Sequence record: OP045498.1
DNA length: 64,000 nucleotides
From: Klebsiella phage 150049
Direction: 5' to 3' (one strand)
Shown here: positions 5,701-42,822 of the stretch, in pieces
Layout: the number at the start of each line of letters is the position of its first letter
Numbering within the stretch: position 1 is the stretch's first letter
The notes under the pieces: generated by a model
Database searches by the model: none
Told to the model about the DNA's origin: nothing
Seen by the model: the letters and a program-made list of their open reading frames with translations, nothing else
Program-made: the position numbers and the translations under genes

Positions 5701-6117
5701 TTAATGTGCTTGATGTGGGAATCTCTTCCTAACTAAGTACATAGTTATTGGATATATTGAATACATAAGTATAGGGGAGAAAAGGGTGAAATAAGCCGTG
5801 ACTCCCCCAGCTAACATCAGTGGTATCAATGCTAGAGTAAGGGCCATAAGAATCATACCGAATGAGACAGCCAGGGCTACTGTGATGCAGTTCTCTAACT
5901 CCATCCAAAGCCAACAATATTTCGTATTCCTCTGGCAGTTGCATTTGCAAACGCCGAATGTGCCCATAATTATATACTCTAGCCCATGAACGACTTTCTT
6001 TAATGTATCATTTTGGGTAACTAGTGCGACAACAGTGAGAATTATCATTAATATGAAAACTACTAGGCTTATTTTCCATATTCCTAGTAATATCATGGTG
6101 AATAGTTCTGCAAACAT
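5701..6117 (-). CDS. multi-pass membrane protein (138 aa), downstream of endolysin, possibly lysis-associated
   Basis: four hydrophobic segments. Confidence 0.5.
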   Translation of the reverse strand: MFAELFTMILLGIWKISLVVFILMIILTVVALVTQNDTLKKVVHGLEYIIMGTFGVCKCNCQRNTKYCWLWMELENCITVALAVSFGMILMALTLALIPLMLAGGVTAYFTLFSPILMYSIYPITMYLVRKRFPHQAH

Positions 6118-6192
6118 GGCTTTCTCCTATCATTAAGTTTTTAAAGCCCCCTTTGCTTTAAAAGGCGGGAATTACCCCGCCTTGATTTATTA

Positions 6193-23215: not shown

Positions 23216-23249
23216 AATATATTATACAGAAAATTTCGGCATTAAGCAA
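23214..23249 (-). promoter_or_regulatory. T5-type early promoter feeding the tRNA block
   Basis: -10 23221..23226, -35 23244..23249. Confidence 0.6.
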
Positions 23250-23660: not shown

Positions 23661-24353
23661 TTATTTGTTAACGCGTACAAAGTATCCTTTATAAGCTCCA
23701 AGAATAGAGTTGCCTAAGAATACTAGCCACATTGCTAGGATTGCGTAAGATGCACCTGTAGATTGAGCAGTTACAAGCCAAATGTACACAGTACCAATGT
23801 TAATAGCAATCCAAATCAGCCATTGTTCAGCATATTGTTTGACCATAAGCCACATAGCAATCACACTACCAACCGCAGTAAATGCGTCAAGCATTGGGAA
23901 TGGATCAGCGGTAGTAGCAAGGAAGCTGCCATATCCTAAAGTAGCTACTGCTAGAACCCCTAGAGTCAGCAAAGCTTGAGCTTTGCTCAGAATCTTAGTT
24001 GGAACATCTGGCAGATTACTTGGCTTATTTTTATGCCATAAGTACATTCCATAAAACTGCATAGGAACATAGTATAGCAGGTTTAGTGCAGCGTTACCAT
24101 AAAGATCTGCATTTAAAGCCGTAATACCATAGGTAAGAACTCCAACTAAGCCCCAAATATAGTTGGAAACACGTCCTTTTGCAACCAGAATAACACAAAC
24201 CACGTTGGTTATTGCAGTAGCCCAATCTAGAGCTGTACCATTATAGTTTGCTAAACTAATAAAGGCGACTGCTATAAACAGCCACAGATATTCCAAAGGT
24301 TTCCAGTTTTTAAAGTCATTTACAAGATAGTTAGTCATATTAAAACTCTCCAA
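23661..24353 (-). CDS. pnuC: nicotinamide riboside transporter PnuC (230 aa)
   Basis: 6-7 TM segments, size and hydropathy of PnuC; adjacent to nadR-like gene. Confidence 0.7.
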   Translation of the reverse strand: MESFNMTNYLVNDFKNWKPLEYLWLFIAVAFISLANYNGTALDWATAITNVVCVILVAKGRVSNYIWGLVGVLTYGITALNADLYGNAALNLLYYVPMQFYGMYLWHKNKPSNLPDVPTKILSKAQALLTLGVLAVATLGYGSFLATTADPFPMLDAFTAVGSVIAMWLMVKQYAEQWLIWIAINIGTVYIWLVTAQSTGASYAILAMWLVFLGNSILGAYKGYFVRVNK

Positions 24354-25446
24354 CGTTAAAGTGATGAATCAGCCAGTCTACTGCGTTTACTGCTTCGTCC
24401 ATACGAACCTTATAGTCCGGGGAGTCAATATATACAGTACGCCCTTCTGGGAACTGATTAGGAAATTCTTTCTTCATCTGCTCGAACAGTTCAGAAGTAA
24501 TTGAACGATCGGAGTTAATACGTAAACCATCATCTACCCACTTAACAGTAGGTGCTAAAACTATAACTAAATCATAATGCTCTTCTTTAGCAATAGCTGT
24601 TACAACCGGATTTTTACGATGCTCGTAAAGTCTGTGATAAAACTCTGTAATGAAAGCATTTGTGTCTACAAACATGATCTTATTTGCAGTACGTTCTGCC
24701 TCAAACTCTAGCTCTTTGTGCCTGAATGCAATTTTATTATAGTCCTCGCTAGTCAGGAGTTCTTCATTACCAACTAGATCAACTTCGCAGTAAGTACGAC
24801 CATATTCTTCTACCCACGAAGTATTATATAATTTCGCAAGGTACTTTGTTAAAGTTGTTTTGCCGGAGCTTTCAGTACCAATGATAACAACCTTACGCAC
24901 GTAGTCTTTACGAACTACGCTAGGTAGGAATTCCCAATACTTCATAAGATCATTACGAATCATAGTAGCTGAGATTGGAACACGAGTCCGATCAGAGTCT
25001 ACAATATAATGTCCAAACTTCGGCAGATATTTCTTATATTCTGCATCATAGTCTATTTCGCTAGAGAAAATGGTAATTTCAGGCAAATGGCCATAATTAT
25101 CATTCAGGATTCTAGCATATTCTGGCCAACCGTTTGGGTACTCTGGAATATCATCTTCAATAATGTACTCTACCGAAACATGCTCGATATCAGCATAAGT
25201 TTGCTCAAGCCAACGCAGTCGATTCTTTAACTGCAAGACTTCCTGATCACGTGTGTTTTGTTTATCCAGCCAGCGATTATCATGACTAACTACAACAATA
25301 ACTCGCTCACACATAGTTGCTGCTGTATTAATTAAGTTAATATGACCACGCGTTAATGGTGCGAACTTACCAATTACTAGACCAGTCTTAATCATATTTG
25401 ATTCCTCTCTCAAATTTATAAATATATTATACAGAGAATTTAGCAT
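24340..25446 (-). CDS. nadR: NadR-like bifunctional NMN adenylyltransferase / ribosylnicotinamide kinase (368 aa)
   Basis: nucleotidyltransferase (H/T)xGH motif GKFAPLTRGH; Walker A GTESSGKTT in C-terminal kinase half. Confidence 0.7.
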   Translation of the reverse strand: MLNSLYNIFINLREESNMIKTGLVIGKFAPLTRGHINLINTAATMCERVIVVVSHDNRWLDKQNTRDQEVLQLKNRLRWLEQTYADIEHVSVEYIIEDDIPEYPNGWPEYARILNDNYGHLPEITIFSSEIDYDAEYKKYLPKFGHYIVDSDRTRVPISATMIRNDLMKYWEFLPSVVRKDYVRKVVIIGTESSGKTTLTKYLAKLYNTSWVEEYGRTYCEVDLVGNEELLTSEDYNKIAFRHKELEFEAERTANKIMFVDTNAFITEFYHRLYEHRKNPVVTAIAKEEHYDLVIVLAPTVKWVDDGLRINSDRSITSELFEQMKKEFPNQFPEGRTVYIDSPDYKVRMDEAVNAVDWLIHHFNVGEF

Positions 25447-25454
25447 TCAAGCAA
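25419..25454 (-). promoter_or_regulatory. T5-type early promoter
   Basis: -10 25426..25431, -35 25449..25454. Confidence 0.6.
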
Positions 25455-25570
25455 TTGAATTTTTAAACTTTTTAGTGGAAAATCGCAGGGCACTTAAGGG
25501 TAGCAGGTGAGTGGTGAGGTCCAGAAATTGTTACCCCAACAGAAATTCGGGGGCAATTTTTAAAGACCCC

Positions 25571-25607
25571 TTGACATTTTCGCTGGGGTAGTGTAAAGTA
25601 TATGTTA
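25571..25607 (+). promoter_or_regulatory. rightward sigma70 promoter TTGACA-17-TAAAGT for the antisense island
   Basis: -35 25571..25576; same TTGACATTTTCGC core as promoter at 55364. Confidence 0.5.
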
Positions 25608-25651
25608 TGGATGAGTGATCAAAGAGACACACAATTTCTATATACTAGGAG

Positions 25652-26644
25652 GTGTCAAAAATGACAGAAGAAGCAACTAAGAAACCTGAGACCGTCAGTG
25701 AAGTCGCAGCAGAACTGAGACGTCATGAGGAATCAGACAAACATAAGTGGGAGAAGGTCAAGGCCTACGAAAAGAAACATCGTGATCACGATGATGACGA
25801 TGAAGATGACGACCATGAGGGCTGTCATAAACATAGGAAACATAAAATGCAAGAACCAGTAAACGTATTCACTAGCGGCTTCCCAGGTCTGATGGGTGGT
25901 TACCCAGCAGTAGCAAATGGTGCTTTCGGCGGTGAAGGTATGGGTCTATTCGGAGCCATCCTGATTGGTGCTCTATTAACAGGCGGATTCGGTGGTTTCG
26001 GTGGTTTCGGACGTGGTGCTGGTGTTGCCGCTGAGGGAACTGCTGTGGATGCTATCCTATCTAACCAGGATACTGCAAGTATTCTAGCTGCAATCAACAC
26101 TGCTCGTACCGAAGCGAATCAAGGTACTGGTGCTGTTCTGAGCGCTGTTAATGGTGTAGGTGCTGCTCAAGCTTCTAGCACTCAACAGATTCTGACTACT
26201 GTGTATGGTACTGGTGCTAACCTGTCCAACCAGATCTGTCAGGAAACTCGTAACGTTATTCAGGGTCAGTTCGATCTTTCTCGCCAGATGGATCAAGCTT
26301 TCGCTGCTAACCAGATCGCTCGTGCACAAGACAAGTTTGACTCTGCCCAGATTGCTTTCCAGCAGTCTCTTCAGACTAACAACCAGTTTGCCGCTGTTCA
26401 GGCTCAGATGTGTGCTAACCAGAACGCTATCGAACGTCAGCTTGCTGAGTGCTGCTGCGAACTTCAGACTGCGATTGCTGGTGTAACTACTGCGCGTATC
26501 CAAGACGAACTGAATGAATGCCGTCTGCGTGAAGCAATCGCTGCAGGTAGCGGTGCAAACGGTCAGGTAATCAATCAAATCGCTGTAAGCCTGGGTGCAA
26601 TTACTCAGACTCTAGCAGCTCTACAGGCTAAAGTACCAGCCTAA
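25652..26644 (+). CDS. low-complexity protein (330 aa): acidic/His-rich N-terminus, Gly-rich hydrophobic segment, long A/Q/N-rich helical tail with CCC cluster
   Basis: strong RBS AGGAGG; high-expression-type codon usage; opposite to flanking genes. Confidence 0.6.
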   Translation: MSKMTEEATKKPETVSEVAAELRRHEESDKHKWEKVKAYEKKHRDHDDDDEDDDHEGCHKHRKHKMQEPVNVFTSGFPGLMGGYPAVANGAFGGEGMGLFGAILIGALLTGGFGGFGGFGRGAGVAAEGTAVDAILSNQDTASILAAINTARTEANQGTGAVLSAVNGVGAAQASSTQQILTTVYGTGANLSNQICQETRNVIQGQFDLSRQMDQAFAANQIARAQDKFDSAQIAFQQSLQTNNQFAAVQAQMCANQNAIERQLAECCCELQTAIAGVTTARIQDELNECRLREAIAAGSGANGQVINQIAVSLGAITQTLAALQAKVPA

Positions 26645-26666
26645 TCTTTAAGGGGAGGAGCCCATT

Positions 26667-27083
26667 ATGAGTAAATATGGTTTTGTGAACAACGGATTTA
26701 ATCAACCAATGGGCTCTCAGCAGCCCATTCCGGGTCTGGATAACCCTTACCTACAACAGTTGCAACAGCGTTTAGCAGAAGCGCAACAGATGCAGCAGCA
26801 ACTCCAGCAAAACCCTGGAAGTGTGAGTCCTATGCAAATGATGCAGCAAATGAGCGGGCAGTCGCAAATGCCTCAACAAATGCAGCAACAGGTGCCTCAG
26901 CAGCAAGTTCAGCAACAAACCCAACAACCGCAGGTTTCTGCGGAAGGACAGGCAGTACTAGCCCTTTTCGAAGACTTCGCAAAGACAGAGGATGGGAAAC
27001 AGCTTGTATCACTTATGGGTAAGTTTAATAGCTTCTGCCAAAGCCAAGTTGCAAAAGCTCAAAATGGCGGTAATAACTCCTAA
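26667..27083 (+). CDS. glutamine-rich (prion-like) protein (138 aa)
   Basis: QQLQQ repeats; RBS GGGGAGGAG. Confidence 0.55.
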   Translation: MSKYGFVNNGFNQPMGSQQPIPGLDNPYLQQLQQRLAEAQQMQQQLQQNPGSVSPMQMMQQMSGQSQMPQQMQQQVPQQQVQQQTQQPQVSAEGQAVLALFEDFAKTEDGKQLVSLMGKFNSFCQSQVAKAQNGGNNS

Positions 27084-27092
27084 GGAGGAATT

Positions 27093-27287
27093 ATGTGTTG
27101 CAGAAAATCTGTTTCGTGCTGCCCAATACCTGTAGCACGTTGTTGCTCTCCAGCAATGTTTACACAAATACCGGTGTTCAATCCGTTTACCTTTAAGCCT
27201 ACTCTTATCCTGCCCCCTAGAGTAGATTTTCAGTCAAGATTGGTCTCCCGTATGGGTGGTTGTTGTAACAAGAGAGTATGGTTCTAA
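27093..27287 (+). CDS. Cys-rich small protein (64 aa) with four CC doublets
   Basis: RBS AAGGAGG; MCCRK..SCC..RCC..GGCC. Confidence 0.45.
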   Translation: MCCRKSVSCCPIPVARCCSPAMFTQIPVFNPFTFKPTLILPPRVDFQSRLVSRMGGCCNKRVWF

Positions 27288-27299
27288 ACCAAAAAACAA

Positions 27300-27336
27300 A
27301 AGCCCCTGCCGAAAGGTAAGGGGCTTTTTCTTTTGC
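27300..27336 (+). terminator. rho-independent terminator (AGCCCCTGCC..GGGGCT plus TTTTCTTTT)
   Basis: hairpin 27301..27325. Confidence 0.7.
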
Positions 27337-27339
27337 CTT

Positions 27340-27380
27340 AAATACAGAAAAGCCCGCGCTCTCGAAGGAAACGCGGGCTT
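27340..27380 (-). terminator. rho-independent terminator for SPFH operon (AGCCCGCG..CGCGGGCT plus T-run on minus strand)
   Basis: hairpin 27351..27379. Confidence 0.65.
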
Positions 27381-27403
27381 GGTTCGAAGATTACGTGTAA
27401 CTA

Positions 27404-28348
27404 TTACTTGTTACGCATATCCATGATCATTTGACCATCGTAGCCAGTACCGACAACAGTCTGTGGTACACCACCTTGGTATTTTTCAGCACGAAGCATT
27501 TCAACTTCCAGCTGCTTCCAACGAATCATTTCAGGAGTAATGGTACGTTGCAGAGCGGCGTTAGCTTCAGCTTCTTTCTTAGCTGCGTACAGTTTAGCAT
27601 CTGCGTCACGTTCGTTAGCTACTGCCATGTTTTCACGAGCGGAACGATCTGCCTCAGCTTGCTTAACTTTCTGCTGTGCTTCTTGTTCAACACGAGCCAG
27701 TTCAGCTTTTGCAGCGTTAACTTGTTCTTCACGAACTTTGGTGTTCTGTACCTGTTCCATGATTACCGGTGGCAGAGTAATATCCTGAAGGAATACTTGC
27801 TTAACGGTGTAACCATAAGGACGCGCATACTCTTCTACTTCTTGCTGAATAGCGGTTTGCAGTTGAGCCTGAATCTTAGCGTCGAACAGATCTTGTGCTT
27901 TTGGTACAGACTTACCAAACTCACGAATCGTAGACAGCATCTTCTCTTCAACGTACTTGTTCAGAGCTTGATCCTGAGTACCTGCGTTAACACGGTTCAT
28001 AGGAGCTTTAGCACCATCAAACTGCAACATAACGGTAATGTCAACAGTAGACTTAAACTTATCCTGGCTAGGAACCTGAAGTTTATCCAGTTTCATGGAA
28101 ATATCTTTCGTACTAAAAGTATCAAAAGAAGCAAATGGGTTAACAATATGGAAGCCTGGCAGTACAGGGTTCGGGCTAACTTTACCCAGGAAGGTTTGAG
28201 TCTTAACAGTACCATCCTGAACAACTGTGTAGGAATTGAGAGCCAGAATAAGAGCGCCAAGACCAACTACAGCACCAACACCCCAACGTTTAATAGTACG
28301 AATTACTTTTTGATCGGAAGTCAGTTCTTTAGTGTTTTTAGTAAACAT
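27404..28348 (-). CDS. SPFH/band-7 (stomatin/prohibitin/HflK-like) membrane protein (314 aa)
   Basis: N-terminal TM, SPFH core then long E/A/Q/K-rich coiled coil. Confidence 0.7.
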   Translation of the reverse strand: MFTKNTKELTSDQKVIRTIKRWGVGAVVGLGALILALNSYTVVQDGTVKTQTFLGKVSPNPVLPGFHIVNPFASFDTFSTKDISMKLDKLQVPSQDKFKSTVDITVMLQFDGAKAPMNRVNAGTQDQALNKYVEEKMLSTIREFGKSVPKAQDLFDAKIQAQLQTAIQQEVEEYARPYGYTVKQVFLQDITLPPVIMEQVQNTKVREEQVNAAKAELARVEQEAQQKVKQAEADRSARENMAVANERDADAKLYAAKKEAEANAALQRTITPEMIRWKQLEVEMLRAEKYQGGVPQTVVGTGYDGQMIMDMRNK

Positions 28349-28359
28349 ATATTTCCTTA

Positions 28360-28560
28360 TTATTTAGAAGAGTTAGCTACTACAGTTACTTTAGTTGCAG
28401 AAATAAACAGGCTAGCATCCACAGCAAATTCAGGAGCTTTGATATCTCCGTTATGAAATATGACTATACCGGAGACTACTTCAAATGCTAGCGCTGTAAC
28501 ATCGGTGGTATTTACTTGTGAATGTTCACCTACTACTTTTACTATATATCGTGTTTTCAC
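28360..28560 (-). CDS. NfeD-like short beta-barrel protein (66 aa), partner of SPFH
   Basis: beta-rich YIVKVVGEHSQV..GIVIFHNGDIKAP; positioned immediately upstream of SPFH gene. Confidence 0.4.
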   Translation of the reverse strand: MKTRYIVKVVGEHSQVNTTDVTALAFEVVSGIVIFHNGDIKAPEFAVDASLFISATKVTVVANSSK

Positions 28561-28586
28561 TTTATTTTCCTAGCAGTTAATAAAAT

Positions 28587-28661
28587 TGGCCGAGGTGACA
28601 GGATTCGAACCTGCATAAAGGAATTTAGAAGACTCCTGCCTATCCCTTAGACTACACCCCG
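28587..28661 (-). tRNA. tRNA-Arg (TCT)
   Basis: anticodon arm GGAGT-CTTCTAA-ATTCC, T-arm GCAGG-TTCGAAT-CCTGT, CCA encoded. Confidence 0.65.
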
Positions 28662-29750
28662 TTTAGGTATTTTTAAGAACTCTTATAAAAGCTCTTAAAG
28701 ATACCCGACGGTAGGTAGGGTCAGCCCCCTCAGATTAAGCTCTGCAGCCCTTCCGTCAGACAATATCTTCCAGTTTAAGTCAGGGTGACTTTGTGGTTAT
28801 GTTCTCCGTATGTGAAGAACTCGGTTAGGCTTAGGTCATGACTCCCAGCCTACTGCTGCCGCTCAACAGGAATTATCGCGAATTACCTGTACTATTGGGC
28901 ACCATTAGTGCCATCTCTCATGTCAGCGTTTCCCACTCTCATATTCACGCGGTCTGTTAGAATCGCACCTCCGATTTTCGATGCGAAGCTGGATGCCTAG
29001 TCTCAGGTTAAACGGGGCACACACTAGGCAGTGATCCCGAGTTCCGAGTTTGGTTGAGGCCGTCAGGTTTCCTCGTGGTTTAGCTGTTTCGATTCTAACC
29101 TAATACTGATCAGGTGGCGTACCTCCTGAACCGTCATAGTATGTACTCCAGCAGCGAATGCTTATCCGGTATAAGCCCGAGTTATCCGATTCTTTCCAGA
29201 AGGAGCAGTAAAGCTCAATGTCAGCCTGTGAGCATCTGGCAGTGTTATCACATAAGTCAGTTCGACACCCCACATTTTAGTGCCTGGTAGATCCCGAATG
29301 AAGCCCTCAGTCGTTAGACCTCCATCATTCATCAAAGATTTACGCTACCCACTATTCGATGGACAATCGCCGCATTGTGGTATACATACGTTTTCACTTG
29401 CATCCTAGACGGGTCAGCGTTGAAAGTTATATGGGTTTCTCAAGCCCAACCTTCAGTCTTCTACCCCTGGGACACGCACCGTATTTCACACTGTGCCTAG
29501 CTCCTGTTGAGACCCATCGTTTTGTATAAATTAGAGAAGAGTTTAGAGGAGAGGTTTCAGACGCCTCATTTTACAAGAAGTCTCGAACCTATATTCGTTA
29601 CTCTAGTCACTTGGCCGGATATACCGGACTGGACTCGGAACTCTAACAGGTGATCATTCTTAACCCACCGACTCTATTCAGTGTCAGAAGCTATCACTAG
29701 GTGAATCGCTAAAGCTCACTCAGCGTAATCGGCTCGCTGTTCTCTAATTT
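28662..29750 (-). ncRNA. candidate large (~1.1 kb) structured non-coding RNA
   Basis: ORF track shows no ORF of 60 aa or more on any of six frames between 28566 and 29795; GC-enriched; transcribed from promoter 29752..29787 into tRNA-Arg and SPFH operon. Confidence 0.4.
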
Positions 29751-29751
29751 A

Positions 29752-29787
29752 TGAATCTATTATACAGAATTTTGGAACGTTTAGCAA
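29752..29787 (-). promoter_or_regulatory. T5-type early promoter driving the large non-coding segment
   Basis: -10 29759..29764, -35 TTGCTA 29782..29787. Confidence 0.6.
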
Positions 29788-29795
29788 ATCAATTT

Positions 29796-30239
29796 TTAAT
29801 TAAATTCGCCAGCAACCTGAGCAGCAATGCCACCATCGTAACGACCAGGAAACTCTTCCTTAATCGCTTTCATCAGCATACCCTTTGTAATCCCAGGATT
29901 CAACTTAACTAATTCTGCAAAGTATTTGCGAATCTCAGAATCAGATAACTGAGGCGGCAGATACTGTTGTAGCCATTTGTTCAGTATATATTCATACTGA
30001 GCAGACTGCAAGCTATAATTATCAAGGTCTTGACCGTGAAGTTTAGCTTTTGTCTGATTAATGCTTTTCAGTTGAGCTTTTAGATAAGATACAAACTGTT
30101 CAGAAGTAATGAAGTCTTTATCAACACGCTGAAGATCTCCGATTATAGTCTGGTAGCTTTTAGCTACTTCTTTATCAGAACCATCAACCTTAGATTCCTG
30201 CAAAGCCCTACGCAAAACATCTAGAATATTCTCTTCCAT
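29796..30239 (-). CDS. hypothetical protein (147 aa)
   Basis: ORF track. Confidence 0.55.
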   Translation of the reverse strand: MEENILDVLRRALQESKVDGSDKEVAKSYQTIIGDLQRVDKDFITSEQFVSYLKAQLKSINQTKAKLHGQDLDNYSLQSAQYEYILNKWLQQYLPPQLSDSEIRKYFAELVKLNPGITKGMLMKAIKEEFPGRYDGGIAAQVAGEFN

Positions 30240-30477: not shown

Positions 30478-30945
30478 TTAAGTTTTCTTAACCACAGGCT
30501 TGTAGAACGTATGGCCTTGAATCTTCGTTGTTTTCTTAAACTTCTTTGTCCAGTACGGTTTATCTTTACCACTATGGAAGTATAACGCTCCATGTGTTGG
30601 ATCTTGTGGTAAATCAACGTAGTATATCACTCTAGCTAAATTCTTAGCAACTTGCCAAGCCTCATCGGTTTTATCAACTTTTGGTCTCTTGGCCACCCAA
30701 GAGAACTGGTTAGACTGATATACTACTTTACAGTAAGAATCAGGAAAAGTACCAGAGTTAACACGGTTTTTAGTAACCTGTGCAACTGCGATCATTCCTT
30801 TAGTGCCCTCACCTCGTGCTTCGAAGTAGATATTTTTTGCAATGCAATCAATCTGCTTTGAGTCGTAGGTCGCATGACTATTGAAGCTATAGGTTAGGGC
30901 AGCTATTAAAAGCAAAGCTGCCTTCATTTTATTTACTCCGGCCAA
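30478..30945 (-). CDS. secreted cell-wall hydrolase, SleB/CwlJ (Hydrolase_2) family (155 aa)
   Basis: signal peptide; NIYFEARGEG motif characteristic of SleB-like hydrolases. Confidence 0.6.
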   Translation of the reverse strand: MAGVNKMKAALLLIAALTYSFNSHATYDSKQIDCIAKNIYFEARGEGTKGMIAVAQVTKNRVNSGTFPDSYCKVVYQSNQFSWVAKRPKVDKTDEAWQVAKNLARVIYYVDLPQDPTHGALYFHSGKDKPYWTKKFKKTTKIQGHTFYKPVVKKT

Positions 30946-31250
30946 TCGTACTCAATACGATTAGGGCTTTCTTGATACCCTTCGTCTAAGAGATCATTAC
31001 GCATGGTCTCTTTAGCTACTGGGTTCGAGGTTACTAGTACCACTTTCTTGGGTCTCTGACCAAATTCTAGGAGTAAACGAAGAATTTGATAACCTTCCAT
31101 ACCATCTACAGCCAGATCGTTATCCATATAAACGAAATGACCTGTGGTATCGGTTTTATTCAGAAACTCAACAGCGGCTTCTGGGGTTCGAATGATAATA
31201 TCCATCCCATGCAGGTCACGAACATCATCAATCAGAATATGAAAAATCAT
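30933..31250 (-). CDS. hypothetical protein (105 aa), weak receiver-domain-like pattern
   Basis: ORF track. Confidence 0.45.
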   Translation of the reverse strand: MIFHILIDDVRDLHGMDIIIRTPEAAVEFLNKTDTTGHFVYMDNDLAVDGMEGYQILRLLLEFGQRPKKVVLVTSNPVAKETMRNDLLDEGYQESPNRIEYDWPE

Positions 31251-31273
31251 AATAGCCTCGTCTCATCAATTTA

Positions 31274-31309
31274 AAAATATATTATATAGAAAACTAAACT
31301 AATTAGCAA
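31274..31309 (-). promoter_or_regulatory. T5-type early promoter
   Basis: -10 31281..31286, -35 31304..31309. Confidence 0.6.
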
Positions 31310-31325
31310 ATACATTTTTAAATTG

Positions 31326-31681
31326 AGAGACTAGTAAACCGATAAACAGCCTAGAGGCGCCACAGGCCATATCTTATGAGCCATGTACCTTTGATCTAGG
31401 GTTTGAATCATCAACGAATACTTTGCATCTTTTAGCTTTAGAAGGTTAGAAGTTTGAGTGCTTTTAACTTTTCAGCTTTCATACTTGAGCGTTGATCTTT
31501 GAAGTTGTGTTGGTACTACCAACGACCGTTTTTACAGTTCAGCTTAAGAGGCTGGTGTAATAAACATAATCTCCAATAGATTATACTTTATAGTATGGTC
31601 AGCGGTCTTATTTAACCTCGTATTTCAACCGCTGCTGCGAGGTAAGATGCTTGGGCTTTCGTCTACCGATTTACTAGTCTT
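31326..31681 (-). repeat. ~355-nt ORF-free element bounded by ~25-bp imperfect inverted repeats (GAGACTAGTAAACCGATAAACAGCC / GGCTTTCGTCTACCGATTTACTAGTCT)
   Basis: arms at 31326..31350 and 31655..31681. Confidence 0.4.
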
Positions 31682-31689
31682 TTAAATTA

Positions 31690-32328
31690 TTACTCTACTT
31701 CGATAAAAGTAGAGGCGTTGGACTCAGACAGAACAAAGTCAACGTTGGTTGCAAAGTCCTGGTATTCTTCGTCGTGTTGCTTGATCAGCTTTTCCAGCTC
31801 CAGCGGATCGATCAGGAACGGAGTGTTCTTGAGTTCCAGCAGGTTAAGCTGCATCTTAACTTCATCCTCGGAAGTCTTCTTGTCGCGGGTAGCCATGGTA
31901 TCCTGCAAACGCTCATACTTGGCATCAAACTGAGCCTTCTGAGTGTTAAACTTAACAGTAGCAGCATGGAACTGCTTACGCATGTTAGCCAGCAACTGAG
32001 CTTTGAGTTCCATAGAACGCTTAGCTTCGATTGCTTCCGCAACAGTCATAGAGCGGGAACCGATCTCTACAACAGTTTCAGCATTGCTCTTGATCAGCGC
32101 TGCTTTCAGCTGATCACGCTGGGACATCATATCCAGCAGAGACTGGAAATCAGTCTTAATACGAGTAGACAGAGCATCTACTTCGATTGCAGCGCCAACG
32201 ACAACTTGGTTCTTGTCCTTACCTTCACCAACAGCGATCAAAAGCTGTTGTTCAGTAGCTTTACGGATTTTAGCTTCCAGAGACTTGATAGTTGCCAGAG
32301 CACGAGTTTTAGAGATACGAGTAGTCAT
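31690..32328 (-). CDS. alpha-helical protein with high-expression codon usage (212 aa from MTTRISK)
   Basis: RBS AGGAAGC before ATG 32328; ORF-track N-terminal extension to 32436 rejected. Confidence 0.55.
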   Translation of the reverse strand: MTTRISKTRALATIKSLEAKIRKATEQQLLIAVGEGKDKNQVVVGAAIEVDALSTRIKTDFQSLLDMMSQRDQLKAALIKSNAETVVEIGSRSMTVAEAIEAKRSMELKAQLLANMRKQFHAATVKFNTQKAQFDAKYERLQDTMATRDKKTSEDEVKMQLNLLELKNTPFLIDPLELEKLIKQHDEEYQDFATNVDFVLSESNASTFIEVE

Positions 32329-32362
32329 TATTTGCTTCCTTATATGAAGTTTGAGATTTGAA

Positions 32363-32393
32363 TTTGTTTTAAAAAACGGTCTATTACAGACCG
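32363..32393 (-). terminator. rho-independent terminator (CGGTCT..AGACCG plus TTTTTTAAAA)
   Basis: hairpin 32377..32393. Confidence 0.55.
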
Positions 32394-32566
32394 ATTGCCA
32401 GCAGAGTGCGCAGAACAGTATCAGAACTGTTATCAATATTCGGATTGGCGCGATTCAGTACGTTAAAGATTTTCTGGATGCCGGACTGACGTTCAGCCAT
32501 ACGACGCAGACCCAGGTTACGTTTTGCTACTTTACCATTTTTACGGACGTTTTTAGATACTGGCAT
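32384..32566 (-). CDS. small basic protein (60 aa)
   Basis: RBS AAGGAAA; K/R-rich. Confidence 0.45.
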   Translation of the reverse strand: MPVSKNVRKNGKVAKRNLGLRRMAERQSGIQKIFNVLNRANPNIDNSSDTVLRTLLAIGL

Positions 32567-32589
32567 AATTGTTTTCCTTTTGTTGTTCT

Positions 32590-32625
32590 CTCAAATTTAT
32601 GAATATATTATACAGAATTTTGGAG
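32590..32625 (-). promoter_or_regulatory. T5-type early promoter
   Basis: -10 32597..32602, -35 32620..32625. Confidence 0.6.
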
Positions 32626-32636
32626 CTGAAAGCAAA

Positions 32637-33338
32637 TCAAATTTTGATTTTTTCGATCATGACGGCTACACAATAACTTTCAACTAAAGCATCGAATGCT
32701 GGATCATGCTTCACAGGATAGATTCCATAACGAATGGTGTCCATCTTTTCCATTTTAGCTTTTGCCCAACTAGCACCTTCGGCTTCTAGATCTTTATAGC
32801 TATAACCAGCTTGCATCCACTGATTACGGAAAGATCGAACGTTACCTAAGTTCCAGAATTTCCACGGAACTATTTCTTCATGGGTTCCGGCATGGAACGT
32901 ATTTGCAGAGTAGATTGTCATATCAAACTCTGGGCCATTGCCGTAATACAGAGCATTATCTCCTAGAGACAATTCCATAATGTTCTGAGCCATAGAGAAG
33001 GCAGCATAATTAGAGCCTACGTCATTAGTGCAGTGATGCTTACCATCACGGAAGGCAATCAGTTTAGGATTACGACCATTTAGAGCCTCCATAATATGGA
33101 GCGCAGATGGACTGTTTTTAGCTTGATCCATCCAGAATGCAATAGTAGAGGCAGTTACCTTAGCACCCGCATTAAGCTGATCTTGAACGTCTAGAGTAAC
33201 GAATACCAGATCAGGATCTTTATCAATTCCGTGCATCGCTACAAAAGCGAAAGAAGGCATTGCAATATGAGTAGTACCGCAATTTCCTGGAGTACCTAGA
33301 GATTCAATGTCCAGCATACCAAAGGGCTTGAATTTCAT
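32637..33338 (-). CDS. DEDDh-family 3'-5' exonuclease (233 aa)
   Basis: Exo I motif MLDIESLG and Exo III motif HDPAFDAL. Confidence 0.6.
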   Translation of the reverse strand: MKFKPFGMLDIESLGTPGNCGTTHIAMPSFAFVAMHGIDKDPDLVFVTLDVQDQLNAGAKVTASTIAFWMDQAKNSPSALHIMEALNGRNPKLIAFRDGKHHCTNDVGSNYAAFSMAQNIMELSLGDNALYYGNGPEFDMTIYSANTFHAGTHEEIVPWKFWNLGNVRSFRNQWMQAGYSYKDLEAEGASWAKAKMEKMDTIRYGIYPVKHDPAFDALVESYCVAVMIEKIKI

Positions 33339-33368
33339 AATTATGTCCTTTATTGTTGTAGAAAACTA

Positions 33369-33581
33369 TTAAAGAGCTGTCTCTTTAATAGACTCCCACT
33401 GTTTGGGGTCTTTCAGAGGAAGTTCCTCTTCTTCAAACAGGTCTGTTCCATTTTCACTAACATCCCAGTTTTCTTCCATGATTTCTTCTAGAAGCTCATG
33501 TTTAGAAAGACGAGTGTAGTCTCTAGCAGACTTGTGAGTGCTAGCACGGTTAAAATCATTCTTTGCAACGAAGTTACGCAT
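33369..33581 (-). CDS. acidic hypothetical protein (70 aa)
   Basis: ORF track. Confidence 0.45.
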   Translation of the reverse strand: MRNFVAKNDFNRASTHKSARDYTRLSKHELLEEIMEENWDVSENGTDLFEEEELPLKDPKQWESIKETAL

Positions 33582-33589
33582 AGTTTCTC

Positions 33590-33613
33590 CAAATAAGAGG
33601 GGCTTTCGCCCCC
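33590..33613 (-). terminator. hairpin GGGGCTTTCGCCCC (terminator-like)
   Basis: same hairpin core recurs at 33877..33892. Confidence 0.4.
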
Positions 33614-33622
33614 TGATTTAAA

Positions 33623-33838
33623 TTACTTGCCCAGCAGTTTAAGGATATTTTCCTTAATAGTTTGAGCAGATTTTTCACTCTTATTGGTTTCAGCCAGTTT
33701 CAGAGCGAGTTCTTCCTGCTGTTTCTGAATATCAGCAGCAGTTTTCTGGTCAGCTTCAATACGAGCTTGAAGTTCATCAGTAATAGTGGTAAAGGAAGCA
33801 ACGATTTCAGTAACGGAACGTGGTTTCTTAGAGAACAT
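33623..33838 (-). CDS. small coiled-coil protein (71 aa)
   Basis: ORF track. Confidence 0.45.
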   Translation of the reverse strand: MFSKKPRSVTEIVASFTTITDELQARIEADQKTAADIQKQQEELALKLAETNKSEKSAQTIKENILKLLGK

Positions 33839-33869
33839 AAAAATATCCTTAATTAGTCAGAGAAAGAGT

Positions 33870-33892
33870 TAGTATATGGGGCTTTCGCCCCA
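33870..33892 (-). terminator. hairpin TGGGGCTTTCGCCCCA
   Basis: recurrent GGGGCTTTCGCCCC core. Confidence 0.35.
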
Positions 33893-33899
33893 TCAATCA

Positions 33900-34418
33900 T
33901 TACTTCGCTTTACGCTTGCGAGTAGGTTTAGCGGATTTACGATCAGAAGCACCAGTAAACTTAATACCGATACCGTAGCACAGAGCGCGAACGTTGTCAC
34001 GGCTATACTCTACACCGAAAATATTCGGTTTAACGGAGCCAAACTGTCCACGGGATTCGCGCATTACATCAGCCATTGGCTTACGCTTCTGATTGACTGC
34101 TTTTTCGTAGTCTTTCAGAGCCATACCGTTGCGGGCGAACATCTCAGCACCGCCGTTAAAGCTCAGAGTTACCGGTACAGACTTATGACCTTCACCCTTG
34201 ATGAACACAACCTGCTTAGTAGCAGTTGCGCGAGTAGAGTTCTTGGCCTTCGGCTTCTGGCGAACCGGAGCCGCAGACTTCAGGGCAGTCTGAGCCTGAG
34301 CATCAGTAGGATGCTTACGCAGATGACGTTCCAGACGAGCCTTACGATTGGCTTCGGTCTGAGCGAAAGTTTTAACTGCCGGAGCTGCCTGAGTTTTTGC
34401 GTTTTTCTGCTTAGCCAT
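33900..34418 (-). CDS. highly basic, probably nucleic-acid-binding protein (172 aa)
   Basis: K/R-rich termini; high-expression codon usage. Confidence 0.5.
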   Translation of the reverse strand: MAKQKNAKTQAAPAVKTFAQTEANRKARLERHLRKHPTDAQAQTALKSAAPVRQKPKAKNSTRATATKQVVFIKGEGHKSVPVTLSFNGGAEMFARNGMALKDYEKAVNQKRKPMADVMRESRGQFGSVKPNIFGVEYSRDNVRALCYGIGIKFTGASDRKSAKPTRKRKAK

Positions 34419-34449
34419 TATTTGTTTTCCTTTTTGTTGATCAATTTAT

Positions 34450-34485
34450 GAGATATATTATACGAAATTTTGAAGCGTTTAGCAA
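34450..34485 (-). promoter_or_regulatory. T5-type early promoter
   Basis: -10 34457..34462, -35 34480..34485. Confidence 0.6.
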
Positions 34486-34501
34486 ATGAATTTTTTAAAA
34501 A

Positions 34502-34780
34502 TTATCTGCCGATCATCTTAGCTTGTTCCTCACTGGAAACGTACTGATAACCACCCTTGTTATATGCAGGAGCAGTACACAGTTTCTTGCGCTCAATTTC
34601 TTCTTGAGCTTTGCGTTCCCTTTCGGCTAATTCTTCATCTAGATAAACTAGACGTTGCTCCGGAGGTGGTGGAAGCCTAGTTTCTGGCTCACCAATATTT
34701 GCCTTTCTGATCTGACGCGGGGATTGTGCGCGTTTTCTCAAAGGTTTAAATCCTAATGAATTTGAGTTGTAAATTCGCAT
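34502..34780 (-). CDS. hypothetical protein (92 aa)
   Basis: ORF track. Confidence 0.5.
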   Translation of the reverse strand: MRIYNSNSLGFKPLRKRAQSPRQIRKANIGEPETRLPPPPEQRLVYLDEELAERERKAQEEIERKKLCTAPAYNKGGYQYVSSEEQAKMIGR

Positions 34781-34800
34781 AAAGCCCTCCTCACTTTCAA

Positions 34801-34836
34801 TACGAATATTATACTAAATTCGAGGGCTTTAAGCAA
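34801..34836 (-). promoter_or_regulatory. T5-type early promoter
   Basis: -10 34808..34813, -35 34831..34836. Confidence 0.6.
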
Positions 34837-34856
34837 GTGAATTTTTAATTTATTTA

Positions 34857-35333
34857 TTACATCTCAGCAAGTTCTTGCTCAGTAATTACAGTATTGCATA
34901 GAGCATCAACTTCTTCATTACCACGAATACCTGAGTGACCTTTGACCTTAACAAAGGTTGGGTTAGTATCATGGAAATTAATATACTGTTGAGTTAGTTT
35001 AAATGCTTCTTGCCAGAGTTCTAGATTAAGAGGAGTTTCACCATCTCCCTTCTTCCAGCCTTTCTTCTGCCAAGACCACATCCAGCTTTCCATACCATTT
35101 TTGCAGTAAGCAGAATCAGTGTAGATAATTACTGGACGATTATCTTTCTTAGTAGACCAACGAAGAACTTCTACAATTGCAGTAAGTTCCATTTCGTTAT
35201 TAGTAGTTTTAGGGCTGAAGCCAGATTTAGAGCCAATACGATCATCATTATCATTATAGACAACGAATCCCCACGCACCTAAACCAGGATTGCCTTTACA
35301 TGCACCATCTGTATATATGTGGAAAACCGACAT
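34857..35333 (-). CDS. rnhA: ribonuclease H (158 aa)
   Basis: IYTDGACKGNPG..TNNEMEL..YTDS..KGH motifs of RNase HI. Confidence 0.85.
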   Translation of the reverse strand: MSVFHIYTDGACKGNPGLGAWGFVVYNDNDDRIGSKSGFSPKTTNNEMELTAIVEVLRWSTKKDNRPVIIYTDSAYCKNGMESWMWSWQKKGWKKGDGETPLNLELWQEAFKLTQQYINFHDTNPTFVKVKGHSGIRGNEEVDALCNTVITEQELAEM

Positions 35334-35602
35334 TATTTACTCCAATCAATTTCAAGCCAAAAACCTTCACGCTGTTCATACTTAGCTTCTACAACATAAC
35401 CTAGTTTGCTAAGTTTTTGCATGACGCTATTTCTAGCGTTTTCTGAGTATTCAGTTAATCCCTGGATGTGACAGTTAAATTCTTTATCTTTAATAGCTTT
35501 GTCAATCTCTACGGCAATAAGTGATTCTAGGTCAATTACTTCCTTTTTAATGCTAGCAATAGTATTTTGTTTTGCTTCTAAAGCAGATAAAAGAATAGAC
35601 AT
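35333..35602 (-). CDS. hypothetical protein (89 aa)
   Basis: ORF track. Confidence 0.5.
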   Translation of the reverse strand: MSILLSALEAKQNTIASIKKEVIDLESLIAVEIDKAIKDKEFNCHIQGLTEYSENARNSVMQKLSKLGYVVEAKYEQREGFWLEIDWSK

Positions 35603-35604
35603 AT

Positions 35605-36183: not shown

Positions 36184-36206
36184 TATTAAATCCTTCTGTC
36201 AAATTA

Positions 36207-36242
36207 GAAGTATATTATATTTGAATTTCACTCAGTAAGCAA
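36207..36242 (-). promoter_or_regulatory. T5-type early promoter
   Basis: -10 36214..36219, -35 36237..36242. Confidence 0.55.
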
Positions 36243-36244
36243 AT

Positions 36245-36275: not shown

Positions 36276-36281
36276 TTTGAA

Positions 36282-36635: not shown

Positions 36636-36638
36636 ATG

Positions 36639-42786: not shown

Positions 42787-42822
42787 CAAATATATTATAC
42801 CAATATATACGGGAGAAAGCAA
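42787..42822 (-). promoter_or_regulatory. T5-type early promoter (first of the leftward block)
   Basis: -10 42794..42799, -35 42817..42822. Confidence 0.6.

What the first reader, a model, noticed from the sequence alone, without database searches (positions are those of the whole stretch)
25480..27345. Antisense-embedded three-gene island of low-complexity proteins with its own TTGACA promoter and terminator
The genes at 25652..26644, 26667..27083 and 27093..27287 are the only rightward genes inside the 42-kb leftward early block. They have a non-T5-type promoter (TTGACATTTTCGC..., 25571..25607), strong Shine-Dalgarno sites, and a perfect rho-independent terminator (27300..27336) placed back-to-back with the terminator of the convergent SPFH operon. 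Protein 1 has a poly-Asp/His metal-binding-like N-terminus (HDDDDEDDDHEGCHKHRKHK), a Gly-zipper hydrophobic segment (GGFGGFGGFG) and a long A/Q/N-rich helical tail with a CCC cluster. Protein 2 is a Q-rich prion-like protein. Protein 3 is a 64-aa peptide with four Cys-Cys doublets. Codon usage (CTG, CGT, GCT, CAG) differs from the AT-rich neighbours and resembles highly expressed host-like genes. No known family is recognisable by eye. This is a candidate novel module, for example host takeover, anti-defence, a phase-separating or membrane-active assembly, or a modified-peptide system.
Basis: seen in the sequence. Interest (0 to 1): 0.75.

Follow-up and report, generated by a model that had tools for sequence, protein, structure and literature searches.

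The report
Portable three-gene accessory operon in T5-like phage
The three rightward genes are a real, self-contained and dispensable operon that also occurs in several unrelated phage groups; it encodes a probable membrane-anchored helical protein, a glutamine-rich partner and a small basic cysteine-rich peptide, and its function is still unknown.

Summary
The window is a T5-like Salmonella phage (99.7% identical to JNwz02), and the island matches T5 genes T5p075-077 with the annotated promoter P12 and terminator ter1. It is the only rightward coding unit in the leftward block. Its TTGACA-17-TAAAGT promoter is unique among 26 canonical T5-type promoters. Three corrections apply: P1 starts at 25661, the terminator stem has one bulge, and the 'host-like codon usage' is amino-acid composition.

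New findings:
- The same P1-P2-P3 order, ending in a terminator, occurs in N4-like, KPP23-like, lambdoid and other phage contigs. There it usually opposes its neighbours and follows a divergent small Zn-ribbon gene.
- It is accessory. About half of close T5 relatives lack it, S114 carries a deletion scar, and the viable T5 mutants st0 and T5Mos remove or truncate it.
- P1 belongs to an unnamed, essentially virus-only superfamily with an invariant Cys-Cys-Cys that is common in crAss-like phages. It has a Gly-rich hydrophobic segment followed by a ~155-residue amphipathic helix.
- No curated library or solved structure gives a function.

Best reading: a moron-like operon making an envelope-associated complex, possibly for superinfection exclusion or lysis tuning. 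The function is inferred, not shown.

The parts
25506..25570 (+). Cassette-specific upstream leader. It contains a small CCCC...GGGGG hairpin with a T-run (25534..25561) and an A/T-rich UP-like element, AATTTTTAAAGA (25555..25566).
   Evidence: It is absent from the cassette-less relative S114, where homology to the window ends at 25505. It is nearly invariant in T5 and Sepoy. The AATTTTTAAAG motif is also present upstream of the cassette in L005 and L007.
25571..25599 (+). Sigma-70-type promoter TTGACA - 17 nt - TAAAGT, equivalent to T5 'promoter P12'.
   Evidence: It matches 10 of 12 consensus positions and is unique in the window, against 26 T5-type promoters. Both hexamers are invariant in T5 and Sepoy. 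Identical hexamers and spacing occur in the distant relatives L005 and L007. The T5 record annotates it as promoter P12. Activity and timing were not tested here.
25661..26644 (+). P1 (327 aa; T5p075 homolog). It has a charged N-terminal helix and an Asp/His-rich patch, then a Gly-rich hydrophobic segment, then a long amphipathic helix with an invariant CCC and a near-invariant C-terminal 27 residues.
   Evidence: ORF and Shine-Dalgarno site. dN/dS against T5 is 0.12. It matches phrog_8119, function unknown. Alignments A1 and A2. AlphaFold models.
25847..25849 (+). Conserved internal Met codon (M63), just before the motif QEPVNVFT. It is a possible second start giving a short isoform with the architecture of the wider family.
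   Evidence: The Met is kept in all 7 lineages examined, each with a purine-rich Shine-Dalgarno-like motif 7-10 nt upstream. The wider family starts at the equivalent position. This is inference only.
25856..26020 (+). Gly-rich hydrophobic segment of P1 (aa 66-120; core GLFGAILIGALLTGGFGGF). It is the predicted membrane anchor.
   Evidence: Mean Kyte-Doolittle hydropathy over 19 residues is 1.72. The N-side flank has no K/R, and one conserved R/K follows the segment across the family. AlphaFold confidence is low here.
26168..26632 (+). Long alpha-helix of P1 (aa ~170-324, about 23 nm if straight).
   Evidence: AlphaFold with a 90-sequence alignment gives one continuous helix at pLDDT ~75-86. 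Family-mean hydropathy has a 3.60-residue period, reached by 1 of 500 shuffles. The single-sequence heptad test was not significant.
26450..26458 (+). Invariant Cys-Cys-Cys (aa 264-266).
   Evidence: The triplet is invariant in A1, A2 and A4. It is present in 209 of the 265 P1-search proteins retrieved.
26667..27083 (+). P2 (138 aa; T5p076 homolog). It has an N-terminal LQQLQQRLAEAQQ helix motif, a Gln/Pro-rich linker (28% Gln) and a conserved C-terminal domain ...LFEDFAKTEDGKQLV..GKFNSFCQS.
   Evidence: ORF. It matches phrog_7894, function unknown. dN/dS is 0.15. A P2-like gene follows P1 in all 10 loci examined. Homologs were found only in T5-like and related phage or metagenome records, none with a credible name; the 'cAMP-dependent protein kinase' label is a low-complexity artefact.
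27093..27287 (+). P3 (64 aa; T5p077 homolog). It is a basic (K+R 9, D+E 1), Pro/Phe-rich peptide that starts MCC and has four Cys-Cys doublets.
   Evidence: ORF. An equivalent peptide of 49-91 aa follows P2 in every locus where the contig allows. It starts MCC, MCGC or MSCNC, with K+R 4-9, D+E 0-1 and 4-11 Cys, and is often uncalled or mis-framed in the records. dN/dS is 0.55 on only 9 differences, which is inconclusive alone.
27298..27335 (+). Intrinsic terminator of the cassette: a GC-rich hairpin with one bulge, then a U-run. An A-run upstream means it may work in both directions.
   Evidence: dG -21.5 kcal/mol, z -3.84, with 0 of 200 shuffles folding as well. T5 annotates the equivalent as 'bidirectional transcription terminator ter1'. 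A terminator directly follows P3 in all 7 other loci folded.

Best explanation
The island is an autonomous accessory ('moron-like') operon. Host sigma-70 RNA polymerase reads it from its own consensus-like promoter, and it ends at its own terminator. It has moved between unrelated phages and is often lost.

The three products most likely form one complex at the cytoplasmic membrane of the infected or lysogenic cell:
- P1 is anchored by a Gly-rich hydrophobic segment and carries a ~155-residue amphipathic helix with an invariant Cys triplet.
- P2 is a Gln/Pro-rich linker protein with a small conserved C-terminal domain.
- P3 is a basic, Pro/Phe-rich peptide with Cys doublets.

P2 and P3 have no signal peptide. 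The charge flanks of the P1 anchor weakly favour a cytoplasmic helix, so the complex is probably on the cytoplasmic face. A conserved internal start may yield a short P1 isoform.

Proposed role: a conditionally useful envelope-level function, most likely excluding competing phages or tuning the cell envelope or lysis. It is not virion building or DNA metabolism.

Shown: the operon anatomy, its portability, its dispensability, purifying selection on P1, cross-lineage conservation of all three products, and the protein architecture.
Inferred: the membrane location, the topology, that the three proteins form a complex, and the biological role.
For: Autonomy:
- The promoter is unique in the window, against 26 T5-type promoters.
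- The promoter hexamers are conserved in T5, Sepoy, L005 and L007.
- A terminator follows P3 in the window and in 7 other loci.

Portability:
- The same P1-P2-P3 order occurs in Demerecviridae-like, N4-like (with virion RNA polymerase), KPP23-like and lambdoid contigs, and in one further contig of unknown type.
- It usually opposes its neighbours. In lambdoid phages it lies between the Q antiterminator and the holin/lysozyme/Rz genes.
- A divergent Zn-ribbon ORF lies upstream in all non-T5 lineages.

Dispensable and accessory:
- It lies inside the T5 st0 deletion.
- T5Mos, with the deletion 30661-38625, is viable, and the coordinate mapping shows this deletion removes the promoter and the 5' part of the P1 gene.
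- 222 records carry the cassette, against 443 with a near-identical polymerase.
- Close relatives lack 1.75 kb cleanly, and S114 retains a remnant of the P3 3' end.

Real genes:
- dN/dS is 0.12 for P1 and 0.15 for P2.
- All three products are conserved across lineages.

Architecture:
- Hydrophobic Gly-rich segment and its charge flanks.
- Long helix with a 3.6-residue amphipathic period.
- Invariant CCC.
- P3 is always basic and Cys-rich.

The P1 superfamily is essentially virus-only: 35 viral loci against 1 short MAG contig among 185,579 genomes.
Against: - No experiment or homology links the proteins to any function. PADLOC, Pfam, NCBIfam, PHROGs function labels and PDB are all negative.
- The topology rests on a single conserved positive charge. 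The hydrophobic segment is only moderately hydrophobic and AlphaFold gives it low confidence.
- No interaction among P1, P2 and P3 was tested. The resemblance between P3 and the Cys/Pro tails fused to remote P1 relatives is at motif level only; an HMM of the tails does not retrieve P3.
- In crAss-like phages the P1 superfamily is co-oriented with late genes and sits near capsid, tail-fibre or lysis genes, which fits a late or structural role better than a moron.
- Transcription timing from this promoter is unknown.
Confidence: 0.4

Rival explanations
1. Accessory lysis module. P1 would act like a holin or spanin-type membrane protein: a Gly-rich 'fusion-peptide-like' anchor plus a long helix able to span the periplasm. 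P3 would be a cationic Cys-rich peptide that attacks the outer membrane once released, and P2 would regulate them.
For: - Wider-family members sit directly after a GH19 endolysin and a 2-TM holin-like ORF in L071 and L072, and near a lysozyme and a multi-TM protein in L041.
- In lambdoid contigs the cassette abuts the holin/lysozyme/Rz genes.
- The ~23-nm helix is about the width of the periplasm (the comparison is my own knowledge).
- A conserved internal start resembles the dual-start motifs of holins.
- P3 is uniformly basic.
- The literature reports a 'spanin' gene family, preferentially recoded at Gln codons, in crAss lysis cassettes. Whether it is the same family is unknown.
Against: - P3 has no signal peptide or lipobox.
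- The N-terminal flank of P1 lacks the positive charge expected for an N-in spanin.
- The lambdoid hosts of the cassette already have holin, lysozyme and Rz.
- T5 st0 and T5Mos propagate without it.
- The cassette is antisense to the late operon and has a non-late-type promoter.
- There is no Pfam or PHROGs lysis-family match.
Confidence: 0.2
2. Dispensable virion fibre or decoration. P1 would form an oligomeric helical fibre locked by an inter-chain cystine knot at the CCC, with P3 and P2 as accessory or cross-linking components that oxidise after release.
For: - In crAss-like contigs the family lies next to the major capsid protein (L019, L069) or tail-fibre genes (L035, L041).
- Public crAss genomes label homologs 'outer capsid protein/viral fiber' or 'spike protein'.
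- Weak PDB profile hits go to reovirus sigma-1 and viral fusion-protein coiled coils.
- Decoration proteins are typically dispensable (my own knowledge).
Against: - Those labels and hits are not significant; the best is E = 0.0077 and reflects a generic helical region.
- The family has a hydrophobic, membrane-like segment.
- In T5-like, N4-like and lambdoid phages the cassette lies outside the structural modules, is antisense, and has a host-type promoter.
- There is no 3.5-residue heptad signal.
Confidence: 0.1
3. Cytoplasmic scaffold or condensate for host takeover. The Gln-rich P2 and the Arg/aromatic-rich P3 would phase-separate on membrane-tethered P1 to concentrate or sequester host or phage factors.
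For: P2 is 28% Gln, P3 is rich in Arg, Phe and Pro, and P1 has Gly-Phe repeats plus a long helix. All three lack export signals.
Against: - This rests on composition only.
- The Gln-rich region of P2 is highly conserved in sequence between T5 and this phage (97% identity), which is unlike a generic low-complexity spacer.
- No client or target is suggested by any data.
Confidence: 0.1
4. Metal- or redox-handling module. The His/Asp patch, the CCC, the Cys doublets and the Zn-ribbon neighbour would bind or sense metal ions or thiol redox state.
For: - P1 has an HDDDDEDDDHEGCHKHRKHK patch, and a longer His run occurs in P0012.
- The CCC is invariant.
- P3 has 4-11 Cys.
- The upstream Zn-ribbon ORF has 6-7 Cys.
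Against: - The His/Asp patch is absent in the N4-like, KPP23 and wider-family members.
- There are no matches to metal-binding families.
- Contiguous Cys are not a classical metal-site geometry (my own knowledge).
Confidence: 0.07

Closest known systems
Phage morons (autonomous accessory transcription units, e.g. lambda bor/lom, or stx between Q and the lysis genes of lambdoid phages)
   Same: It has its own sigma-70-type promoter and its own terminator and is inserted between conserved neighbours, often on the opposite strand. It shows presence/absence polymorphism among close relatives, is dispensable in the laboratory, and lies between Q and the lysis genes in lambdoid contigs.
   Different: It has three co-transferred genes, plus a divergent Zn-ribbon gene outside T5-likes, rather than one. 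It also occurs in strictly virulent phages (T5-like, N4-like). Its third-position GC is not foreign. Its proteins have no homology to any known moron product.
Two-component spanins (Rz/Rz1) and class III holin T of T4
   Same: P1 has an N-terminal membrane anchor followed by a long helical region containing Cys, and it is paired with a small Pro- and Cys-rich partner. Some family members are adjacent to endolysin and holin genes.
   Different: P3 has no lipoprotein signal. The charge flanks of the P1 anchor do not fit an N-in topology. P1 is larger. There is no Pfam or PHROGs lysis match. The cassette co-exists with complete holin/lysozyme/Rz sets and is dispensable in T5.
Membrane-located superinfection-exclusion proteins (T4 Imm/Sp, P22 SieA, HK97 gp15)
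   Same: It is a predicted inner-membrane accessory protein, expressed from a host-type promoter, non-essential and patchily distributed.
   Different: These systems are single small proteins without long helical rods or Cys-rich partners. There is no sequence similarity, and exclusion was not tested.
crAss-like phage proteins annotated 'outer capsid protein/viral fiber' or 'spike protein/glycoprotein' (e.g. in cr4_1, cr53_1, Bacteroides phage C3_41T2LP)
   Same: They are true homologs of the P1 core: the Gly-rich hydrophobic segment, the Asn/Gln-rich helix and the invariant CCC.
   Different: They lack the charged N-terminal extension and the P2 and P3 partners. They are co-oriented with late genes, and many carry a fused Cys/Pro-rich C-terminal tail. 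Their labels are profile-derived, not experimental.

Membership tests
Phage moron / autonomous accessory operon | Own promoter, distinct from the surrounding phage transcription programme | tested here: met
   TTGACA-17-TAAAGT is unique in the window, against 26 T5-type promoters. It is conserved in relatives and annotated as P12 in T5. Activity was not measured here.
Phage moron / autonomous accessory operon | Own terminator directly downstream | tested here: met
   Hairpin with U-run at 27298..27335, z -3.84. The same arrangement occurs in 7 other loci.
Phage moron / autonomous accessory operon | Presence/absence polymorphism between otherwise collinear relatives, and dispensability | tested here: met
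   222 records carry the cassette against 443 with a near-identical polymerase. Close relatives lack 1.75 kb cleanly, and S114 shows a deletion scar. The T5 st0 and T5Mos deletions are viable.
Phage moron / autonomous accessory operon | Foreign nucleotide composition | tested here: inconclusive
   GC is 0.49 against 0.40, but GC3 and synonymous codon choice are typical of the phage.
Two-component spanin (Rz/Rz1-type) | Outer-membrane lipoprotein partner with signal peptide and lipobox | tested here: not met
   P3 peptides start MCC or MCGC, with no hydrophobic signal sequence (maximum 19-residue hydropathy 0.15-1.30) and no lipobox.
Two-component spanin (Rz/Rz1-type) | Type II (N-in) inner-membrane anchor with a periplasmic coiled coil | tested here: inconclusive
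   An anchor and a long helix are present. The N-side flank lacks K/R and one K/R follows the anchor. No heptad periodicity was found. Topology is not testable in silico here.
Two-component spanin (Rz/Rz1-type) | Linkage to holin and endolysin genes, and similarity to known spanin families | tested here: not met
   The window cassette is not next to lysis genes. There is no Pfam Phage_lysis or PHROGs lysis hit. The lambdoid carriers have their own Rz. Some wider-family members are linked to lysis genes.
Known anti-phage defence or superinfection-exclusion proteins | Match to a curated defence-protein model | tested here: not met
   PADLOC gave no hit for P1, P2, P3, the Zn-ribbon ORF or a wider-family member.
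Known anti-phage defence or superinfection-exclusion proteins | Blocks infection by other phages | not testable with these tools
   This needs plaque or exclusion assays with the cassette expressed or deleted.
Viral fibre / class I fusion-protein-like coiled coil (label used in crAss genomes) | Significant similarity to solved fibre or fusion proteins, and heptad coiled-coil periodicity | tested here: not met
   The best PDB profile hit is E = 0.0077 to sigma-1 over 63 residues; the others are at E >= 0.037. Foldseek found nothing. The periodicity is 3.60 residues, not 3.5.
RiPP / modified-peptide system | Precursor peptide next to a modifying enzyme | tested here: not met
   P3 could pass as a precursor, but P1 and P2 match no Pfam family of any kind. 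Across lineages the constant set is only P1, P2, P3 and sometimes a small Zn-ribbon ORF.

The most novel reading that the evidence does not exclude
P1, P2 and P3 build a previously undescribed phage-encoded envelope machine. It would be a membrane-anchored ~23-nm helical rod, locked by its invariant Cys triplet, that recruits a Gln/Pro-rich linker and a basic Cys-doublet peptide. P1 would be the founding member of a large virus-only superfamily that is also a conserved late gene of crAss-like gut phages. The machine would carry out a new type of lysis/fusion or phage-exclusion mechanism, regulated by long and short isoforms from a dual start.
Probability: 0.2. Interest if true: 0.8.

Novelty: new variant of a known kind. 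Interest (0 to 1): 0.5.

Why it matters
T5 is a classical model phage, yet this operon has sat annotated as 'hypothetical' since the genome was sequenced. Standard laboratory stocks that carry tRNA-region deletions, such as T5st0 and T5Mos, lack all or part of it, so work done with such stocks cannot have seen its function. The cassette moves as a unit, with its promoter conserved within the T5-like lineage and a terminator in every lineage, between T5-like, N4-like, lambdoid and Pseudomonas phages. That implies a portable, host-facing function under selection. Its core protein belongs to an unnamed superfamily of hundreds of viral proteins, including many from crAss-like gut phages. Assigning a function would annotate a widespread family. 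It could also reveal a new exclusion or lysis mechanism.

Tried and rejected
- Pfam, PHROGs, NCBIfam and PADLOC scans of P1-P3 and their neighbours gave no functional family.
- PDB sequence-profile searches with two alignments gave only generic helical noise.
- AlphaFold with 17 sequences was unusable (pLDDT 47.5). With 90 sequences it gave a single long helix. A Foldseek search of the PDB with that model found nothing, so no further fold searches were run.
- The single-sequence heptad test was not significant, and conservation periodicity was not significant either. I therefore dropped the term 'coiled coil' as a demonstrated feature.
- I tested the idea that P3 is a detached version of the Cys/Pro tail fused to remote P1 relatives. 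The motifs look alike, but an HMM of the tails does not retrieve any P3. It is kept only as a weak lead.
- The spanin identity was rejected on the missing lipoprotein signal and on co-occurrence with Rz.
- The RiPP idea was rejected because no enzyme is present.
- No E. coli RefSeq genome matched the lambdoid version of the cassette.
- An Rfam scan of 25000..29800 gave only sub-threshold terminator-like hits.
- The literature gave no paper on T5p075-077, and the promoter alignment figure of Klimuk et al. is not held as text.
Full report
**Identity of the window and check of the observation**

The region is 99.7% identical to Salmonella phage JNwz02 and is shared by 222 phage records, nearly all T5-like Markadamsvirinae. 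The three + strand ORFs exist as described.

P1 should start at ATG 25661, 9 nt after AGGAGG, as annotated in T5. It should not start at GTG 25652, which abuts the Shine-Dalgarno site.

The other long + strand ORFs in 1..42.7 kb are not genes. They overlap tRNA genes or shadow real - strand genes. The island is therefore the only rightward coding unit in the leftward block.

The promoter TTGACA-17-TAAAGT (25571..25599) matches 10 of 12 consensus positions. The window contains 26 copies of the T5-type promoter, TTGCTT-N17-TATAAT-ATATT, against 1.6 expected. All are co-directional with their genes. The island's promoter type occurs once. Klimuk et al. (PMC7472727) report that all known T5 early promoters share the ATATT discriminator. 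The island has ATATG after a weak -10 and a perfect -35.

The terminator hairpin at 27298..27335 is strong (z -3.84) but has one bulge. A - strand terminator follows at 27350..27380.

The composition claims are exact. The codon-usage claim fails, because GC3 and synonymous preferences match the rest of the phage.

**What was already annotated**

In T5 record AY734508 the island is T5p075, T5p076 and T5p077. They are preceded by 'promoter P12' and followed by 'bidirectional transcription terminator ter1' and a 'major DNA single-chain interruption'.

That record is exactly the segment deleted in the heat-stable mutant st0 (wild-type coordinates 33684-41891). T5st0 is a routinely used laboratory strain.

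By coordinate mapping, the cassette spans about 37973-39689 in T5. T5Mos is viable and carries the deletion 30661-38625 (PMC11464382). It therefore lacks the promoter and the first ~560 bp of the P1 gene.

The cassette is thus dispensable for growth on laboratory hosts.

**It is an accessory element that has been lost repeatedly**

A near-identical DNA polymerase (at least 90% identity) is found in 443 records, while the cassette is found in 222. Many close Epseptimaviruses have the flanking NadR-like and SPFH genes adjacent, with 1.75 kb missing.

In S114, homology to the window stops at 25505 and resumes at a remnant of the last ~12 codons of P3, next to a degenerate terminator. The empty state is therefore a deletion derivative.

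**It is a portable unit**

P1 homologs at 36-56% identity lie in several other phage backgrounds:
- Pseudomonas phage KPP23;
- an N4-like contig carrying the virion RNA polymerase (L004);
- distant T5-like contigs (L005, L007, L066);
- lambdoid contigs with O, DnaB, NinB, NinG, Q, holin, lysozyme, Rz and terminase (L006, L064, L065);
- another contig of unknown type (L068).

In every locus P1 is followed by a P2-like gene. Where the contig allows, it is also followed by a P3-like peptide. That peptide is often uncalled, and in KPP23 it is annotated in the wrong frame. A terminator follows P3 in all seven other loci folded.

The cassette usually opposes its neighbours. In lambdoid contigs it lies between Q and the lysis genes, which is a classical moron site.

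All non-T5 lineages also have a divergent 48-67-aa Zn-ribbon ORF immediately upstream. It gives only sub-threshold matches to the NinG zinc motif. It may be a local regulator, but that is inference.

The distant T5-like contigs L005 and L007 keep the same promoter hexamers and the AATTTTTAAAG upstream element.

**The genes are real**

Between this phage and T5, dN/dS is 0.12 for P1 and 0.15 for P2. P3 has too few differences to judge (0.55 on 9 changes). Its conservation as a peptide class across all lineages supports it as a gene.

**The proteins**

P1 has these parts:
- a charged N-terminal helix (pLDDT ~80) and a variable Asp/His patch;
- a conserved M-(Q/S)-EPVNVFT motif;
- a Gly-rich hydrophobic segment with mean hydropathy 1.7, no K/R before it and one conserved K/R after it;
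- an Ala/Gln/Asn-rich region.

With a 90-sequence alignment AlphaFold models that region as one continuous helix, residues ~170-324, at pLDDT 75-86.

Family-mean hydropathy has a significant 3.60-residue period. The 3.5-residue heptad signal and the single-sequence test are not significant. I therefore describe it as a long amphipathic helix, and oligomerisation is inferred.

The CCC is invariant, and the last 27 residues are almost identical from T5-like to N4-like phages.

All seven lineages keep a Met just before the hydrophobic segment, with a Shine-Dalgarno-like motif 7-10 nt upstream. This suggests a short isoform, but it is inference.

P2 has a conserved N-terminal helix motif, a Gln/Pro linker and a conserved ~45-aa C-terminal domain. 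Its homologs came only from T5-like and related phage or metagenome records, with no credible name.

P3 peptides are always basic (K+R 4-9, D+E 0-1) and rich in Cys, Pro and aromatic residues. They have no hydrophobic signal sequence.

**A wider superfamily**

A profile search of 1.84 billion representatives found 219 proteins at E <= 1e-3. A second profile search found 314 at E <= 1e-5, none with an informative name.

Most are 240-320 aa. They have a short acidic N-tail, the Gly-rich segment, Asn/Gln-rich helices, the CCC and a DGxATRALIN motif.

The family is essentially viral: 35 loci in viral contigs against one short MAG contig among 185,579 genomes. Many members are in crAss-like phages:
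- next to the crAss major capsid protein (L019, L069);
- next to tail-fibre genes (L035, L041);
- directly after a GH19 endolysin and a 2-TM holin-like ORF (L071, L072).

Public crAss genomes label homologs 'outer capsid protein/viral fiber' or 'spike protein'. Those labels mirror the non-significant helical PDB hits I obtained.

These members lack P2 and P3. About 40 carry a fused Cys/Pro tail, CP(V/I)P..PVYG..P(I/V)FTC..CGCGCG..F, that recalls P3. An HMM of the tails does not retrieve P3, so this is only a motif-level lead.

**Interpretation**

The anatomy, portability, frequent loss and dispensability fit a moron-like accessory operon.

The architecture fits a membrane-anchored complex, probably on the cytoplasmic face. 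P2 and P3 have no export signals, and the charge flanks of the anchor weakly favour a cytoplasmic helix.

I commit to an envelope-level, conditionally useful role, namely exclusion of competing phages or tuning of envelope or lysis, at 0.4 confidence. The rivals are:
- an accessory lysis module (0.2);
- a dispensable virion fibre (0.1);
- a condensate scaffold (0.1);
- a metal or redox module (0.07).

No homology-based function is available from any library tried.

**Novelty**

As a sequence feature the island is already annotated in T5. As a functional unit it is uncharacterised. Three things were not annotated in any record or curated library I examined, and were not found in my limited literature searches:
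- the cross-family portability of the trio;
- the Zn-ribbon companion;
- the link to a large crAss-associated superfamily.

Noticed in passing
L003 (Pseudomonas phage KPP23, AB910392) 5969..6151 vs annotated ORF072 5971..6165: The GenBank ORF072 (VLQSAGS...) appears to be in the wrong frame. The overlapping frame encodes a P3-like peptide, MCCNQPVPQCCGPF...CCKKFDCC. Similar P3-like ORFs are uncalled in L004 (7269..7418) and L006 (7444..7719).
   Followed up: yes
window 26667..27083 and relatives (e.g. Sepoy_121): P2 is annotated in several phage records as 'cAMP-dependent protein kinase catalytic subunit'. It has no kinase domain. The label looks like a propagated low-complexity (poly-Gln) artefact.
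   Followed up: yes
window 26667..27287 vs 25661..26644: Between this phage and T5, synonymous divergence is 0.47 in P1 but only ~0.08 in P2 and P3. P2 is also closer to T5 (97%) than to other Epseptimaviruses (~77%). This suggests a recent recombination breakpoint inside the cassette, or nucleotide-level constraint.
   Followed up: partly
window 27350..27380 (- strand terminator): T5 annotates a 'major DNA single-chain interruption' (one of the T5 nicks) at the equivalent position, between ter1 and the SPFH gene. The stem here contains GCGC. Whether this phage is nicked there is unknown.
   Followed up: no
window 23661..25446 (- strand): A PnuC-like nicotinamide riboside transporter and a NadR-like NMN adenylyltransferase/ribosylnicotinamide kinase (an NAD+ salvage pair) lie immediately upstream of the island. 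T5 has a primase-like gene there instead.
   Followed up: partly
window-wide, e.g. 25421..25454 (-), 23216..23249 (-), 42789..42822 (-): There are 26 copies of the T5-type promoter, TTGCTT-N17-TATAAT-ATATT, against 1.6 expected. They switch strand at ~42.8 kb together with the genes and give a ready promoter map of the early region.
   Followed up: partly
L004 5911..5756, L006 5917..5744, L064 5919..5716, L068 5914..5759, L003 4445..4299: A conserved divergent small Zn-ribbon ORF (CxxC-x6-CxxC-x13-C-x3-C, ...WFTK.R.DQ.YC.P.CRQRK.RR) accompanies the cassette in all non-T5 lineages. It is uncalled in L004. In L006 a perfect 12-bp-arm inverted repeat lies between it and P1, which could be an operator.
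   Followed up: partly
L019 67..2637: The portal gene of this crAss-like contig matches Hint and LAGLIDADG homing-endonuclease domains in Pfam, so it seems to carry an intein.
   Followed up: no
L012, L019, L041, L069 and other loci, downstream of the CCC gene: In crAss-like contigs the P1-superfamily gene heads a recurring block of small genes: a ~97-aa beta-rich protein, then ~57 aa, ~87 aa and a ~157-aa DUF7841 protein. It is often preceded by a ~95-aa ORF (sub-threshold HTH_17 match in L069). All are of unknown function.
   Followed up: partly
window 28662..29750: This is a GC-richer (0.45-0.50) stretch without convincing ORFs next to tRNA-Arg. It corresponds to the 'RNAX' misc_RNA annotated in the T5 record. 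Rfam found no family there in the part scanned.
   Followed up: no
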